A stretch of 64,000 nt of DNA from an uncultured delta proteobacterium (GTDB taxonomy: Bacteria; Desulfobacterota; Binatia; UBA9968). The translations under genes were made by a program, and so were the position numbers. Of this stretch, positions 46,345 through 56,536 are shown piece after piece (positions within the stretch are counted from its first letter, which is position 1; every line of letters begins with the position of its first letter). The notes beneath the pieces are model-generated. The model ran no database searches. It saw nothing but the letters and a program-made list of their open reading frames with translations, and was not told the origin of the DNA. The stretch covers positions 448,001 through 512,000 of the forward strand of contig CAVUZH010000019.1 of the NCBI GenBank assembly GCA_963745835.1, given 5' to 3'.

Positions 46345-47325
46345 ATGATCCCAATGATGAATACGTACGACACGATTCGCACGAGTTTGCACTTCAATAA
46401 GTTCGTGGTCGGGGAGCTGCTTTTCGTCGAATACAAGTGCCCGATTGAACAGGAAGCCGCCGGCGTGTGGACGCCGATGGATTATTTTGTTCATGTGCTG
46501 AGCGGCAAAAAAACCTGGCGCACTACTGACGGAACTTGGATAGCAGAAAAGGGCCAGACTTTGTTTTTCAAGAAAGGCGCCGCCGTTGTCTACCAGGATT
46601 TCAAGGACGATTTCTGCGTTTTGGTGTTTTTCGTTTCGGATAATTTCATCCGGGATGTTGTCAGAGAAGTTTCCGGTCAATTGAGCAGCCGGCGCGACGC
46701 CAACGCGCTTCAAAAAGCCGCGATTCTAATCAATGCCGATGTGACTTTGGCCGCCTATTTTCAATCCATGCTGGCCTATTTCACTGGGACGGCAAAGCCG
46801 GCCGAAACTTTGTTGACGCTCAAGCTCAAGGAATTGATCGTGAGCATACTTTTGGGGGGCAGGAATCCCGAGCTCGCCGGTTACTTTCAATCGCTGCTCA
46901 AAAGCGATGCCCCTGTGCTGTCGCAAATCATGGAGGCGAATTTTTCTTACAATCTGGCGCTGGAAGATTTCGCAAGATTATCCCATCGCAGCCTGTCGAC
47001 GTTCAAACGCGACTTCCGCAAGTACTACAACCAATCCCCGGGCAAGTGGCTATTGCAAAAGCGACTGGACTATTCAGCCGTGCTGTTAAAAAATCCCGCG
47101 CTCAACGTTTCGCAAGTCGCCTTGGATTGCGGCTTCGAAGACCTCTCGCATTTCAGCCGGGCGTTCAAAGAAAAATTCGGCACCTCCCCGGCGCATTACC
47201 GTAAAGAAATTCCTGGTCGTGGCGTCTCGCGGCTTAGTGAAACAGACCTCTTGCAGGCTGCTCAAAAAGATCCAGAGGCGAGGCCCGCGAAGATCGATAA
47301 GCGGAGGCGTGCTCTTGCACGTTGA
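46345..47325 (+). CDS. AraC family regulator (ExsA-like N-terminal domain)
   Basis: RSLSTFKRDF, VALDCGFEDLSHFSRAFK; C-terminal tail runs into a repeat. Confidence 0.88.
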   Translation: MIPMMNTYDTIRTSLHFNKFVVGELLFVEYKCPIEQEAAGVWTPMDYFVHVLSGKKTWRTTDGTWIAEKGQTLFFKKGAAVVYQDFKDDFCVLVFFVSDNFIRDVVREVSGQLSSRRDANALQKAAILINADVTLAAYFQSMLAYFTGTAKPAETLLTLKLKELIVSILLGGRNPELAGYFQSLLKSDAPVLSQIMEANFSYNLALEDFARLSHRSLSTFKRDFRKYYNQSPGKWLLQKRLDYSAVLLKNPALNVSQVALDCGFEDLSHFSRAFKEKFGTSPAHYRKEIPGRGVSRLSETDLLQAAQKDPEARPAKIDKRRRALAR

Positions 47326-47376
47326 CGCGCAATCGGTCGAGAGCAACGAAGCCTATGGGCTTTTTCAGCAACCTGC
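47253..47376. repeat. ~124 bp palindromic (MITE/REP-like) element
   Basis: Terminal IR gcaggctgctcaaaaag / ctttttcagcaacctgc; central hairpin cgtgc-tctt-gcacg. Confidence 0.78.
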
Positions 47377-47477
47377 TGGAAAGAGCCGCTCAGTCAAACA
47401 TCTGGCCTCTCAAACAAAGCATCTTTCTCTGCCCCGCTTTATCTTTGGCAGCAGAATAAATCTTTAAGGAGCCAATT

Positions 47478-53444: not shown

Positions 53445-54331
53445 ATGCCCTCGATTCCTTCTCTTCACCTTCTCAAGGTCTTCCTGCGGGTCGTCAATGA
53501 GCGCGGTATCTCCAAAGCCGCGGCCGCCCTCAACGTAAGGCAGCCTTCGGTTTCCATGCAGATTCGTCAACTCGAAACCACCTTCGGGGTGAAATTGCTC
53601 GATCGTCTTGGGCAAGAGATCCATCCAACCCAAGCAGGAATGATGTTACGAGAATACGCGACGAAGATCCTTGACTTGGTTGATCACTTGCACGCCGACA
53701 TGGCGAATCTGCAGAACTTGAGAACCGGCCGGCTGGTAGTGGGTGGGAGTAAAGTACCAAGTGCTAGAAGATTCCTCTGGCCATTGCAACGTTTCAAAAG
53801 TTGTACGGGCAAACAGAGATTTTGATGGAAGTGGCAAGCAGCGATGCTGTGGAACAATGGGTTCTTGAGAACCACGTTGATTTTGCAATCGTCGTAGGCG
53901 ATCCCGTCGCACCTCAAATCGTGGAAGAACCGTTTTATAAGGAAGATTGGTACTGTTCTACCACCCAAACACCCCATGGAGAAAAGGAGATAGGTATCGG
54001 CTTATCAGATCTCAGAAATGCGCTTGTTTCTGCCGCACGATGGACGGGTGAAGACATATATTGAGAACTGCTTTGCAGAAAAAGGAATACCGCTCAATCG
54101 GAGGGTATCTCTCGGATCGATGGATTCAGTTAAGACTGCGATTGGTGCCGGATTAGGGGTATGGATCATGGCCAGATCGACAGTCGAAAGAGAAGTAAAA
54201 ACCGGTTTGCTATTGACAAAAGACTATGCGATCTGGAACTGAAGTATCCGGTAAACATCAACTATCATAAGGATAAGCATTTTTCCCGGCTAGCCACGGA
54301 ATTTCTTGCTGTTCTTAGAGAGTCTGTCTGA
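53445..54331 (+). pseudogene. LysR family regulator, multiple frameshifts
   Basis: HTH KAAAALNVRQPSVSMQIRQLE; substrate domain continues in ORFs 53801 and 54018. Confidence 0.78.
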
Positions 54332-54658
54332 ACGAGAATCTCACCCCGATTACCCTACAGCTCGTTGAGAAACAGAGATCGTGAAACGATCGCGATTACT
54401 TATACCCGGGATCAGGTTATACCGGGGATCAAGCGAGGGATGAGATATGCGATCTTCACTGGAAAATCGGCCTCGGTGATGATGCCGTTATCGATGAGCA
54501 GCTTTTGCCGCGTCGGTTTGCGGCTAAATTTGCAACCAACTCGAGACGGCATGAGCCACGCGGCGAAACGCTATCAGGTTGCTGATCTTATAAACGGAAT
54601 GGCCTCCGCGCGACCGGCTGTGGTACACCGGCGGAGACAAAACCTTAGGAGGCCAGCG

Positions 54659-55660
54659 ATGGAACATTTTGTTGGTATCGATTTACACAAGTACGTATCA
54701 CAATTGGCTGTGTTGAGGGAAAGCCGATCTCCTTCACAGTTACGTTTGGCGAATGATGTTGTGACGGTGGAACGGATTTTAAAGAAACTTCCCGAGGGGA
54801 GCAAGATAGCGGTAGAGGCGATGGGTTCGTGGTGGTGGATGGTTGAGCTAGTGCAAAAGACTGGCCACGAAGCGTTTTGGTCGCATCCAAGCAGACAAGG
54901 CGTTCGGTCAGCGCGATTGAAGTCCGATAAGGTCGATGCTTGGATATTGGCCAAGTTACTTAAGGCCGATCTGCTTCCCGCGGTGTAGATCCCTCCTGAA
55001 AACCAACGTCATATTCGCGAGCTTCTGACCCACCGGGCGCGCCTGGTGCGTCAACGAACCGCTGTGATCAACGAACTGCGTGCGGTTTACGCCAAGCGAA
55101 ACATCGATCCTCAAGCCAAGCTTCAGCGGGCCGAACCCCAAGTCTCGGGAGCCGAGGATCTCAGCGGCTATGCTCCGAGGATTGTGGGAGAAGATGTGGA
55201 GCTTTTGGGGTTTGTCAATGGGCAGATTGGAGGACTGGACAAGGAGTTGATGAAGATCGCTCTTGAAGATGGCTCGGCTAAGCGGCTGATGACGATCCCG
55301 GGGGTGGGAGCGGTGAGTGCGGTGGCGATGAGCTGCTGGATTGGCGAGATTGCTCGATTTTCTAATGCGAAAAAGTTGGCCAGCTACTTTGGGTAGGCGC
55401 CGCGGGTGCGCCAGAGCGCCGACACCGAACGCCATGGACATATCACCAAAGAAGGCGATCGCATGGTGCGCTCTCTGGTGATCCAAGCCGCCCTGGTGTA
55501 TACGCGAAGGGGTAAAGGCCTGAGCGTAGCATTATTTGGGGTGCTTAAAAGAAGAGGCAAGCCGATTGACCGGGTGGCGGCGGCCAACAAACTGTTGGGC
55601 GTGATTTTTCATATGCTCAAAGAATGCATCGACTATCAGGAATCCTCAGGCGTAGCGACG
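54659..55660 (+). pseudogene. IS110 recombinase (DEDD plus Transposase_20) with in-frame TAG stops
   Basis: FVGIDLHK, AVEA, KSDKVDA, LMTIPGVG, RQS; TAG at 54986-54988 and 55394-55396; 3' end approximate. Confidence 0.85.
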
Positions 55661-55664
55661 CACA

Positions 55665-55800
55665 GTGAGGCCGTACTTGTTCATGGTCGTAAGACCGAGT
55701 TGCTGATTGGGCAGCTGTGCCTCTCCAGAGGGAGAACCGCCGGATTTAAGATATGCGCTTTTAAAGGGCGCGAAGAGATGAGTGGGTCGCTACCCATACG
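55665..55800 (+). ncRNA. Putative bridge/seek RNA of the IS element
   Basis: Two guide-hairpin-guide modules matching the target (cttgttca, gttgctga) and the donor junction (taagat, agagatga); boundaries approximate. Confidence 0.72.
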
Positions 55801-55972
55801 TTGATCAGCCCGGCGATCAGAGCCGAAAAGGGGAATACCGGGAGTCATATTAAACTGAGATAGTGCGTTATAAGCGAAATACGGAGGTCTTTTTTTGAGA
55901 AATCATTGCAAAACAAAATCAAGCTGTAACCCGCTTGACTGAGCCGTTCCGTTTAGAGATGAAAAAGCCTTT

Positions 55973-56114
55973 GCGGGTTGCTCAAAAACCAAAGACGGGA
56001 CGCGCTACGAACCGTGATCGTTTCCCGTGAAAATCCACACGAGCATGACACGCTTCAGGATCCGATCTAGTGGGGCGACGCAACGAAGCTAATCGATGTT
56101 TTTCAGCGGCCCGT
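55973..56114. repeat. Palindromic element, same family as 47253-47376
   Basis: gcgggttgctcaaaaac ... gcaacgaagc ... gtttttcagcggcccgt. Confidence 0.7.
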
Positions 56115-56536
56115 TAGGCGCCTGATCGGAGACTGCCATAAAGGCGCTCGGGGGTAATGAGAACCAGATTTCTCTCTTCCTCACGCATCTGCCTGGCGAA
56201 TTCCTCGTCCGTTCCTTTGGGGGCGCGGCCCATGGCCGTGTAGAGCTCCTTCAGCCGCTTGATATGCGCTGGCGTGTCTTGCCACGGCTCGATGGAGGTC
56301 GGGCCCTCGACGGTGACATAGCGCCGCGTGTCGAGCTTGATCACTGTGATCGTCGCCCGGCCCGTTCTCTGAATGTTCTTGATTTTTACCGTCCATCCGC
56401 GCGATGCAAACCCGACCTTACCATCCAATACGGCGGTCGAGACGACGGTCGACTGCGCACGGCCGTTGGGCATGACGCTGATCGCGACGCCGGTGTGATT
56501 TTCTTGCAATAAGGGGAGCGCTTCTTTCCATTCCAT
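56114..56536 (-). CDS. Pyridoxamine 5'-phosphate oxidase-like (PPOX class) protein
   Basis: NGRAQSTVV, KIKNI.R, YVTVEG, MREEER..V.ITP. Confidence 0.75.
   Translation of the reverse strand: MEWKEALPLLQENHTGVAISVMPNGRAQSTVVSTAVLDGKVGFASRGWTVKIKNIQRTGRATITVIKLDTRRYVTVEGPTSIEPWQDTPAHIKRLKELYTAMGRAPKGTDEEFARQMREEERNLVLITPERLYGSLRSGA

What the first reader, a model, noticed from the sequence alone, without database searches (positions are those of the whole stretch)
54575..55970. IS110/IS1111 element inserted precisely into the terminal IR of the dispersed repeat, with an identical empty target in the window
Seen: left junction caggttgc-TGA-tcttataaacgg and right junction ccgtttagaga-TGA-aaaagcc. 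Removing the element restores caggttgctgaaaaagcc, an 18/18 match to the reverse complement of 47358-47375, the end of an unoccupied repeat copy. Known: IS621 targets REPs and IS4321/IS5075 target Tn21-type IRs. Inference: an IS-repeat targeting pair, here with a 3-nt shared core.
Basis: partly seen in the sequence, partly recalled or inferred. Interest (0 to 1): 0.8.

Follow-up and report, generated by a model that had tools for sequence, protein, structure and literature searches.

The report
RNA-guided IS1111-type element in a repeat end
A decayed copy of an RNA-guided (IS110/IS1111-family) insertion sequence sits exactly inside the end of a short dispersed repeat, and its own guide RNA spells out that target; this is a clean new example of a known mechanism.

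Summary
A 1377-bp element (window 54583-55959) lies between CAGGTTGC and TGAAAAAGCC, and joining the flanks gives an 18-mer found once in the 7.28-Mb genome, at 47358-47375.

It is an IS1111-group member of the IS110 family: DEDD and Tnp domains, 13-bp subterminal inverted repeats, and a long 3' non-coding region.

That region encodes a bridge/seekRNA. Four guides match the left target, the right target and both IS ends, each including a shared TG. Across 43 non-redundant relatives the guides change together with the flanks: 26 of 38 left-guide/flank pairs are perfect, against 7 of 1236 mismatched control pairs.

- All 15 left junctions of this IS type are at different loci, and all lie in the same repeat end.
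- The window copy is dead: two TAG stops, eight missing bases and mutated guides. An intact copy lies on contig C22.
- The conserved core in the clade is TG. The third shared base, A, is a coincidence of this target.
- A second, unrelated IS110-family element targets the centre of the same repeat.

The closest precedent is IS1111 itself in the QMITE2 repeat of Coxiella. This is a new member of a known kind, of modest interest.

The parts
54575..54582 (+). Left target half (LT) CAGGTTGC: the outer 8 nt of the terminal inverted repeat of a diverged copy of the dispersed repeat
   Evidence: The same 8-mer class flanks all 15 left junctions.
54583..54584 (+).
   Evidence: the left junction is always ..TGA|TCT.., while right flanks start TGA, TGT, TGG or TGC in different clades.
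54585..54658 (+). Left end (74 nt non-coding), including the subterminal inverted repeat TAAACGGAATGGC at 54591-54603
   Evidence: It matches the reverse complement of 55943-55955 at 12 of 13 positions.
54659..55668 (+). Recombinase (DEDD transposase) pseudogene. In-frame TAG at 54986-54988 (W in the intact copy) and at 55394-55396 (L in the intact copy). Eight bases are missing relative to the C22 copy. The original stop is the TGA at 55666-55668.
55660..55796 (+). Bridge/seekRNA module. Closing stem P1 5' strand 55660-55665 and 55669-55672, paired with 55709-55712 and 55715-55720. RTG 55676-55683 (CTTGTTCA, mutated; CTTTTTCA in the intact copy). Hairpin 55685-55696. LTG 55699-55706 (GTTGCTGA). 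Hairpin 55722-55735. RDG 55747-55753 (TAAGAT-A, one base lost; TAAGATCA in the intact copy). Hairpin 55755-55771. LDG 55774-55781 (AGAGATGA). Hairpin 55783-55796.
55857..55900 (+). About 42 nt of the non-coding region resembling the reverse complement of the 3' coding end of an unrelated ISNCY-family element
55943..55959 (+). Right subterminal inverted repeat GCCGTTCCGTTTA (55943-55955) plus the terminal GAGA
55960..55961 (+). Right copy of the TG core
55962..56119 (.). Right target half (AAAAAGCC...) and the remainder of the diverged repeat copy that hosts the IS; the end is approximate
   Evidence: alignment to the repeat consensus; no BLAST-level hit.
47243..47377 (-). Unoccupied copy of the dispersed repeat. 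Its end at 47358-47375 is the exact empty target (reverse complement CAGGTTGC TG AAAAAGCC).

Best explanation
The feature is a 1377-bp IS1111-group insertion sequence of the IS110 family. It entered by RNA-guided, recombinase-mediated insertion of a circular intermediate at a TG core. That core lies 8 nt inside the terminal inverted repeat of a roughly 130-150-bp dispersed, MITE-like repeat. The 3' non-coding region encodes a bridge/seekRNA with two guide loops.

[quoted passage not shown] What is shown here:
- the junctions and the empty site;
- family membership of the protein;
- the four guide matches;
- guide-flank covariation across relatives;
- a conserved secondary structure.

What is inferred:
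- that the RNA is made and bound by the recombinase;
- that a circle forms;
- that the Ser/DEDD chemistry is that of IS621.

The window copy is no longer autonomous, because its gene and its guides are mutated. Its ends and flanks are intact, so the intact copy on contig C22 might still move it in trans (inference).
For: - Junctions and empty site.
- Protein: PF01548 2.4e-14 and PF02371 4.6e-22. NF033542 'IS110 family RNA-guided transposase' scored 246 bits against a cut-off of 140 for the intact copy. It is homologous to the solved IS621 (8wt6, E 4.9e-14) and ISCro4 (9t56) recombinases, with GID, LEA, SDKVDA and QS aligned.
- A second full copy at C22:70270-71678 (96% identity, intact 338-aa ORF) has the same two junctions in another repeat copy.
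- In the window, exact 8-mers in the non-coding region equal the left flank plus core (55699-55706) and the right end plus core (55774-55781). A 6-mer complements the left end. The right-target guide was found 5' of the first hairpin.
- Covariation, from 43 non-redundant loci of 45 with the RNA region. The 5 variable guide bases equal the left flank in 26 of 38 loci and match at >=4 of 5 positions in 33 of 38. Controls paired with flanks of other guide types gave 7 of 1236 perfect matches. There are 14 distinct left guides. An exact complement of >=6 nt to the right flank was found in 28 of 37 loci, against 42 of 1158 controls.
- The donor guide follows the left-end variants TCTTA, TCTCA and TCACA.
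- Structure: 97.1% of 1004 cells are paired, against 36-47% when partners are slid. Ten of 28 pairs have changes on both sides, including GC to AU in the closing stem (29 GC, 7 AU).
- All 15 left flanks differ upstream of the last 14 nt.
- Single-base specificity: all 4 insertions in this genome have GTTGC flanks, matching the guide GUUGC. Unoccupied 12-mers number 9 with GTTGC and 44 with GCTGC. By my arithmetic the hypergeometric P is about 0.002. Relatives with guide GCUGC sit in GCTGC or GCTAC flanks (L058, L059).
- The guide order and its location 3' of tnp agree with the published IS1111 seekRNA description (PMC11187229, Introduction and three Results subsections read) and with the bridge-RNA definitions (PMC11208160, passages).
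Against: - No direct evidence for the RNA or the circle. Contigs of four public runs showed no end-to-end joint, and the one RNA run did not cover the non-coding region.
- Single-sequence folding is no better than shuffles: z = +0.95, -1.23 and -0.39.
- No Rfam family matches.
- No sigma-70-like junction or internal promoter above chance.
- Twelve of 38 left-guide/flank pairs are imperfect, and 9 of 37 right guides have <6 nt of exact complement. Some of these are degenerate copies such as L007 and L066.
- Four loci (L080, L081, L093, L095) lack TG at the right junction (AGAGA|TCTCC), and their donor guide mismatches the left end at one position. I cannot explain this.
- I found no closing stem for the donor loop.
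- The GL-P----S(T)G motif reads GLAPRVRQSA here, so the Ser is present and the Gly is not.
Confidence: 0.9

Rival explanations
1. The recombinase recognises the repeat end by protein-DNA contacts alone, and the short matches in the non-coding region are fortuitous.
For: There is no direct RNA evidence. Single-sequence folds are not significant.
Against: Four separate matches lie exactly at the junction positions. There are 14 guide variants that change together with their flanks, against 7 of 1236 in controls. The recombinases remain 57-98% identical.
Confidence: 0.03
2. The copies arose by duplication or homologous recombination of a segment that already contained the IS and its flanks, not by repeated targeted insertion.
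For: The repeat is abundant and could mediate recombination.
Against: The 15 left flanks share no similarity upstream of the last 14 nt. The host repeat copies differ: both end types are used, and the window copy is only about 62% like the consensus. An exact unoccupied site exists.
Confidence: 0.02
3. The repeat end belongs to the mobile element itself, so the true boundaries are wider and the short repeats are deletion derivatives of this IS.
For: No autonomous parent with the repeat's terminal repeats was found in this genome.
Against: Only 8-11 nt of repeat lie to the left of the IS, and the rest lies to the right. Removing the IS restores a continuous repeat end. The IS ends bear no likeness to the repeat. 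Related IS with other guides sit in other sequences.
Confidence: 0.02
4. The window copy is still functional, with the two TAG codons read through.
For: Both stops are TAG and are in frame.
Against: The intact sibling has TGG (W) at one position and TTG (L) at the other, so no single reading fits. Eight bases are also missing, which shifts the frame locally, and the guides are mutated. One caveat applies: the neighbouring LysR gene is also split by frameshifts, so some of the indels could be assembly errors.
Confidence: 0.03

Closest known systems
IS1111 in the QMITE2 repeat of Coxiella burnetii (PMC5896051, passages read)
   Same: An IS1111-group element whose copies sit almost all in one short dispersed repeat (20 of 21 there). 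It is inserted 10-20 bp from the end of the repeat, so a few bases of the repeat lie 5' of the IS. Unoccupied copies remain in the genome.
   Different: The host lineage, the repeat and the IS sequence all differ. Here the guide RNA and its match to the repeat end are worked out. Here the repeat also hosts a second IS110-family element.
IS1111-family seekRNA elements ISEc11, ISKpn4/ISPst6, ISPa11 (PMC11187229; Introduction and the Results subsections on family features, target finding, programmability and targets read)
   Same: The long non-coding region lies 3' of tnp and there are subterminal inverted repeats. The guide complementary to the top strand lies 5' of the guide for the bottom strand. 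Natural retargeting by guide replacement occurs between relatives. The targets are repeats (REP, attC) or short linear sites.
   Different: On plasmids the closest matches are <=42% identical at the protein level, and all 4676 matching records are <60%. Terminal extensions here are 6 and 4 nt around the TG, against the 7 and 3 reported. The motif ends SA, not SG or TG. No experiment has been done here.
IS621 bridge RNA system (PMC11208160, passages; solved structures 8wt6 and others)
   Same: A DEDD plus Ser recombinase. Two RNA loops each pair with both strands of the target or donor and include a 2-nt core. The target is a dispersed repeat (REP).
   Different: IS621 is in the IS110 group: its RNA is in the left end, its guide order is LTG then RTG, and its core is CT. 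Here the RNA is in the right end, the order is RTG then LTG, and the core is TG.
[quoted passage not shown]
   Same: An IS1111-group element that targets the terminal inverted repeat of another mobile element.
   Different: The target there is an autonomous transposon's inverted repeat on plasmids. Here it is a short, non-coding chromosomal repeat. I did not read that paper.
ISPpu9 and ISPpu10 in REP sequences of Pseudomonas putida KT2440 (PMC12288879, abstract and outline only)
   Same: Two different IS110-family elements in one genome that use the same repeat family as landing sites.
   Different: The elements and the repeat are different. Details of that paper beyond the abstract were not read.

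Membership tests
IS110 family (DEDD recombinase IS) | N-terminal RuvC-like DEDD domain (PF01548) plus C-terminal domain (PF02371) | tested here: met
   2.4e-14 and 4.6e-22, both above the curated cut-offs, on the window copy read through its two TAG codons.
IS110 family (DEDD recombinase IS) | NCBIfam NF033542 'IS110 family RNA-guided transposase' above its cut-off | tested here: met
   246.3 bits against a cut-off of 140 for the intact C22 copy; 218 bits for the window copy.
IS110 family (DEDD recombinase IS) | Catalytic D, E, D, D and Ser positions conserved relative to IS621 | tested here: met
   The alignment to 8wt6 pairs GID, LEA, SDKVDA and QS with IS621's GID, IEA, TDTVDA and ES. That these are the catalytic residues is recalled, not taken from a call.
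IS110 family (DEDD recombinase IS) | No target duplication beyond the short shared core | tested here: met
   only TG(A) is shared between the two junctions, and the empty site holds it once.
IS1111 group | Subterminal inverted repeats (11-13 bp per PMC11187229; 7-17 bp per PMC11208160) | tested here: met
   54591-54603 against the reverse complement of 55943-55955, 12 of 13 positions.
IS1111 group | Longer non-coding region downstream of tnp | tested here: met
   about 291 nt 3' (55669-55959) against 74 nt 5'.
IS1111 group | Transposase of 330-350 aa | tested here: met
   338 aa counted from MEHF. An upstream in-frame ATG would give 358 aa.
IS1111 group | GL-P----S(T)G motif | tested here: inconclusive
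   the sequence is GLAPRVRQSA, with Ser present and Ala in place of Gly. The paper mentions TA as an occasional variant.
IS1111 group | Terminal extensions of 7 bp (left) and 3 bp (right) beyond the inverted repeats | tested here: not met
   6 nt (ATCTTA) and 4 nt (GAGA) around the TG core, or 8 and 4 if the core is counted on the left.
Bridge RNA / seekRNA-guided recombination | RNA guides matching both strands of the target and including the core | tested here: met
Bridge RNA / seekRNA-guided recombination | Guides for the donor (IS ends) | tested here: met
   AGAGATGA equals the right end plus core. TAAGATCA complements the core plus the left end and follows the left-end variants.
Bridge RNA / seekRNA-guided recombination | Guides covary with the insertion site across relatives | tested here: met
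   with the counts given in the For line.
Bridge RNA / seekRNA-guided recombination | Conserved secondary structure that places the guides in loops | tested here: met
   for the closing stem and four hairpins. A closing stem for the donor loop was not found.
Bridge RNA / seekRNA-guided recombination | The RNA is expressed and bound by the recombinase; a circular intermediate exists | not testable with these tools
   One search used assembled contigs only, which are not informative for this.
MITE (the target repeat) | Short, non-coding, many copies, terminal inverted repeats | tested here: met
   94 copies of >=100 nt, about 127-148 bp long, with ends CAGGCTGCTGAAAAAG / CTTTTT(G/C)AGCAGCCTG.
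MITE (the target repeat) | Target-site duplication and an autonomous parent element | tested here: inconclusive
   The flanking CTAG/TAA is palindromic and cannot be told apart from an extension of the inverted repeat. No parent was found among 11 candidate pairs of ends.

The most novel reading that the evidence does not exclude
The repeat may act as a shared 'safe harbour' that co-evolves with at least two unrelated RNA-guided IS. Single-base guide variants (GUUGC or GCUGC) would partition the repeat-end variants between IS lineages. The two roughly 500-bp internal IS fragments that sit exactly between the two target halves (L002, L003) would then be products of guide-directed recombination at internal pseudo-cores, which would be a built-in decay or truncation pathway of bridge-recombinase elements.
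Probability: 0.15. Interest if true: 0.5.

Novelty: new member of a known kind. Interest (0 to 1): 0.3.

Why it matters
The locus gives a fully readable natural example of an IS1111-type bridge/seekRNA. All four guides can be read, and it comes from an uncultured soil lineage. The clade carries 14 natural left-guide variants, including a one-base switch that tracks a one-base variant of the target.

Such series are useful for understanding the specificity rules of bridge recombinases and as a source of new orthologues. For annotating this genome, the result explains one repeat-associated insertion, marks it as a dead copy, and points to the live copy on contig C22. It does not change what is known about the mechanism.

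Tried and rejected
- Rfam: no family at E<=1 over the IS or over the empty repeat.
- Single-sequence RNA folds of the non-coding region: not better than shuffles, and not used as evidence.
- My first idea that the GCGC...GCGC hairpin loop holds the right-target guide was dropped. Loci with the same right flank have different loops. The real guide lies 5' of the first hairpin.
- RNAalifold's pairing of UGAUU with GAUCA, and of CUGCG with CGCCG, was set aside in favour of the long-range closing stem. That stem has a GC to AU double change.
- Promoter and terminator scan: nothing above chance. I also saw no sigma-70-like hybrid promoter across the abutted ends by eye.
- Read laying, end-to-end joint and RNA cover: no end-to-end joint was found, and the RNA-run contigs covered parts of tnp only.
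- Read laying, the skipping contig in X9: one contig skips the C22 copy precisely (1385 nt skipped, 3 shared letters). It has only 21 letters on one side and probably comes from another empty repeat copy, so I do not count it as excision.
- BLAST of the window's right flank against the genome: no hit. Only the consensus alignment shows that it is a diverged repeat.
- Search for an autonomous parent of the repeat: none found.
- A third IS110-family element (contigs C15 and C5) is not in the repeat.
- The 42-nt piece of the non-coding region that hits many related genomes is not an RNA module of this IS family alone. In three other places of this genome it is the reverse complement of the 3' coding end of an ISNCY-family transposase gene.
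- Literature: 'Binatia' with 'IS110' returned 0 papers. 'IS1111' with 'miniature inverted-repeat' returned 5 papers. I ran no other search for this particular IS or repeat, so I make no claim that it is absent from print or from ISfinder.
- Supplementary files were stated closed and I did not ask for them. The target logos in the supplements of PMC11187229 and Supplementary Table 5 of PMC11208160 may already list relatives or targets of this clade.
Full report
**What is there.**
The left junction reads CAGGTTGC (54575-54582), TGA (54583-54585), then TCTTATAAACGG. The right junction reads CCGTTTAGAGA (ending 55959), TGA (55960-55962), then AAAAGCC.

Abutting the flanks gives an 18-mer whose reverse complement is window 47358-47375. 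That 18-mer occurs once in the 7,276,699-bp genome. The element is 1377 bp if one copy of the shared bases is counted with it.

**The gene.**
One reading frame runs from ATG 54659 and is interrupted by TAG at codons 110 and 246. Read through, it carries PF01548 and PF02371.

A BLAST of the region against the whole genome found three other pieces:
- a second full copy at C22:70270-71678, 96% identical, with an intact 338-aa frame that has W and L at the two TAG positions;
- two roughly 500-bp internal pieces, at C22:64763-65267 and C3:491052-491541.

Relative to the C22 copy, the window copy has about 47 substitutions and 8 missing bases. It is therefore a pseudogene. One caveat applies: the LysR gene just upstream (53445-54330) is also split into three frames, so some indels could be assembly errors. 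The two nonsense substitutions cannot be explained that way.

The intact protein has these matches:
- It scores 246 bits on NF033542, 'IS110 family RNA-guided transposase', against a cut-off of 140.
- It aligns with the solved IS621 and ISCro4 recombinases.
- Its nearest matches on plasmids are <=42% identical.
- It has many uncharacterised relatives in soil metagenomes: 2359 proteins at E<=1e-20 among the 8000 candidates scored.

**IS1111-group features.**
- 13-bp subterminal inverted repeats, matching at 12 of 13 positions (54591-54603 and 55943-55955).
- A 74-nt left end against a roughly 291-nt non-coding region 3' of the true stop at 55666-55668.
- A 338-aa recombinase.

These fit the published definition (PMC11187229; PMC11208160). 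Two details differ. The terminal extensions are 6 and 4 nt, not 7 and 3. The Ser motif reads SA, not SG or TG.

**The guide RNA.**
In the 3' non-coding region I found an 8-mer identical to the left flank plus shared bases (GTTGCTGA, 55699-55706). I also found an 8-mer identical to the right end plus shared bases (AGAGATGA, 55774-55781), and TAAGAT, which is complementary to the start of the left end.

To test whether these matches mean anything, I collected relatives:
- one near-full-length copy and several fragments from related genomes;
- 23 loci from species genomes;
- 80 loci from metagenomes at 57-98% protein identity. Of 408 pattern matches, 122 were relatives, and the best 80 were kept.

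Aligning their junctions and non-coding regions shows a constant scaffold with four variable segments, in this order:
1. a segment complementary to the right flank, including TG. It is CUUUUUCA in the intact copy;
2. a hairpin;
3. a segment identical to the left flank plus TG;
4. a long hairpin;
5. a segment complementary to TG plus the left end. It is UAAGAUCA in the intact copy;
6. a hairpin;
7. a segment identical to the right end plus TG;
8. a final hairpin.

In the terms of PMC11208160 these four segments are RTG, LTG, RDG and LDG. The order is reversed relative to IS621, as PMC11187229 reports for IS1111-type seekRNAs.

**Covariation.**
Of 45 loci with the RNA region, 43 are non-redundant. 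Among the 38 that have a left flank:
- the five variable guide bases equal the flank in 26 loci;
- they match at four or five positions in 33 loci;
- guides paired with flanks of loci carrying another guide match perfectly in 7 of 1236 pairs.

There are 14 distinct left guides. Among the 37 loci with a right flank, 28 have an exact complement of 6 nt or more in the guide window, against 42 of 1158 control pairs. The left-end guide follows the left-end variants TCTTA, TCTCA and TCACA.

A structure with a closing stem around the target loop and four hairpins is kept in 97.1% of 1004 cells. When the partners are slid, only 36-47% remain paired. Ten of 28 pairs have changes on both sides, including a GC to AU change in the closing stem.

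Results against the model:
- single-sequence folds are unremarkable;
- Rfam has no match;
- 12 of 38 left-guide pairs are imperfect;
- four loci (L080, L081, L093, L095) lack TG at the right junction and mismatch the donor guide at one position, which I cannot explain;
- I found no closing stem for the donor loop.

**The core.**
The left junction is always ...TGA followed by TCT. The right flank begins TGA only in this IS type. In other clades it begins TGT, TGG or TGC. The conserved shared core is therefore TG. The A is the first base of the left end, and it happens to be the next base of this target too.

**Same target everywhere.**
For this IS type (left end TCTTATAAACGG) I have 15 left junctions:
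- four from this genome: the window, C22, L002 and L003;
- eleven from other sources: L035, L051, L057-L059, L061, L062, L110, L111, L121 and L134.

All end in the (C)AGG(C/T)TGC class of motif. In 14 of them TGA follows. L002 lacks the TGA. No two share similarity further upstream. Eleven of 11 right junctions begin TGAAA, and 10 of 11 begin TGAAAAA. Loose ends in public contigs add two further left flanks that join at the same place.

**Single-base specificity.**
The guide in both copies of this genome is GUUGC, and all four insertions here have GTTGC flanks. Yet unoccupied sites number 9 for GTTGCTGAAAAA against 44 for GCTGCTGAAAAA. By my arithmetic the hypergeometric P is about 0.002, assuming independent insertions. 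Only two perfect 13-mers (GTTGCTGAAAAAG) remain unoccupied, and one of them is the site at 47358. Relatives with guide GCUGC (L058, L059) sit in GCTGC or GCTAC flanks, and L057 and L062, with GUUGC, sit in GTTGC.

**The window copy's RNA is damaged.**
- The right-target guide reads CUUGUUCA, with G at 55679 where the C22 copy has T.
- One base of the conserved GAUCAUGCGC is missing (after 55752).
- The closing stem has GGCC where relatives have GCCC or GUCC.

**The target repeat.**
The repeat is about 127-148 bp long, with 94 copies of >=100 nt. Its ends are CAGGCTGCTGAAAAAG and the matching inverted sequence. One side often has a second outer copy of that end. The repeat is usually flanked by CTAG or TAA.

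The IS is found in both kinds of end. The window IS sits in a diverged copy. I found no autonomous parent, and Rfam has no match. Whether the repeat is a true MITE or a REP-like element is left open.

**Comparison and verdict.**
IS1111 itself inserts 10-20 bp from the end of the QMITE2 repeat in Coxiella, in 20 of 21 copies (PMC5896051). The family also has other repeat targets:
- ISPa11 and IS621 use REP elements;
- ISKpn4 uses attC sites;
- IS4321/IS5075 use Tn21 inverted repeats.

The RNA-guided mechanism was published in 2024. It is a new member of a known kind, with a well-resolved guide RNA and a useful natural series of guide variants.

**Limits.**
- There is no evidence here for the RNA, the circle or current activity.
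- All read evidence comes from assembled contigs.

Noticed in passing
G000 C3:1197689-1198843 (-), C14:273703-274857 (+), C16:90030-90971 (-), outside the window: A second, unrelated IS110-family element (about 1.45 kb, 415-aa ORF) has three copies that are about 99% identical inside. Each sits in the centre of a different copy of the same dispersed repeat, at GTACGC-CT-C(A/C)GCTC with core CT. Its long 5' non-coding region contains GTACGC and AGCTGAG (the complement of CTCAGCT), in the IS110 guide order. The repeat is therefore a landing site for two RNA-guided IS at two positions.
   Followed up: partly
L002 = G000 C22:64763-65263 and L003 = G000 C3:491052-491541: Two roughly 500-bp internal fragments of the IS (positions about 490-990 and about 411-902) lack both ends and the RNA module, yet sit between CAGGTTGC / TAGGTTGCTGA and TGAAAAAC..., which are the two target halves. 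Only one of the four junctions shows the TGA overlap. A public contig joins the L002 left flank to an intact left end. Their origin is unexplained.
   Followed up: partly
window 55857-55900; L137 = G000 C13:759741-761858: About 42 nt of the IS non-coding region resembles the reverse complement of the 3' coding end of a 1518-bp ISNCY-family element. That element has a 459-aa ORF (NF033594, 336 bits) and three copies at 99.7-99.9% identity. The piece also hits many related genomes on its own.
   Followed up: partly
window 53445-54330: A LysR-type regulator gene is split over three reading frames, with the HTH_1 domain followed by two LysR_substrate pieces. It is either a pseudogene or a sign of indel errors in the assembly.
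   Followed up: no
loci L063-L075, L076/L078/L083, L081/L093 and others (metagenome contigs): Sister clades of the IS also sit in recurring sequences: AAAGTAGCC-TG-TCCCCTTT (12 loci), CACCCCCGAA-TG-TTTTTATCGGGGG (a palindrome) and GATTGAAYTGAAT-TG-A. This suggests that each clade targets its own dispersed repeat.
   Followed up: no
L014 = G002:C185: A left-end fragment and a piece of the non-coding region of a related IS lie in inverted orientation within 300 bp, with the left junction reading CAGCTTGC-TTG-TCTTATCGACGG. It may be a rearranged relic.
   Followed up: no
G000 C15:11693-12664 and C5:169422-170246: A third IS110-family element (1574 bp, two copies at 99.9% identity) has flanks unrelated to the repeat.
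   Followed up: partly
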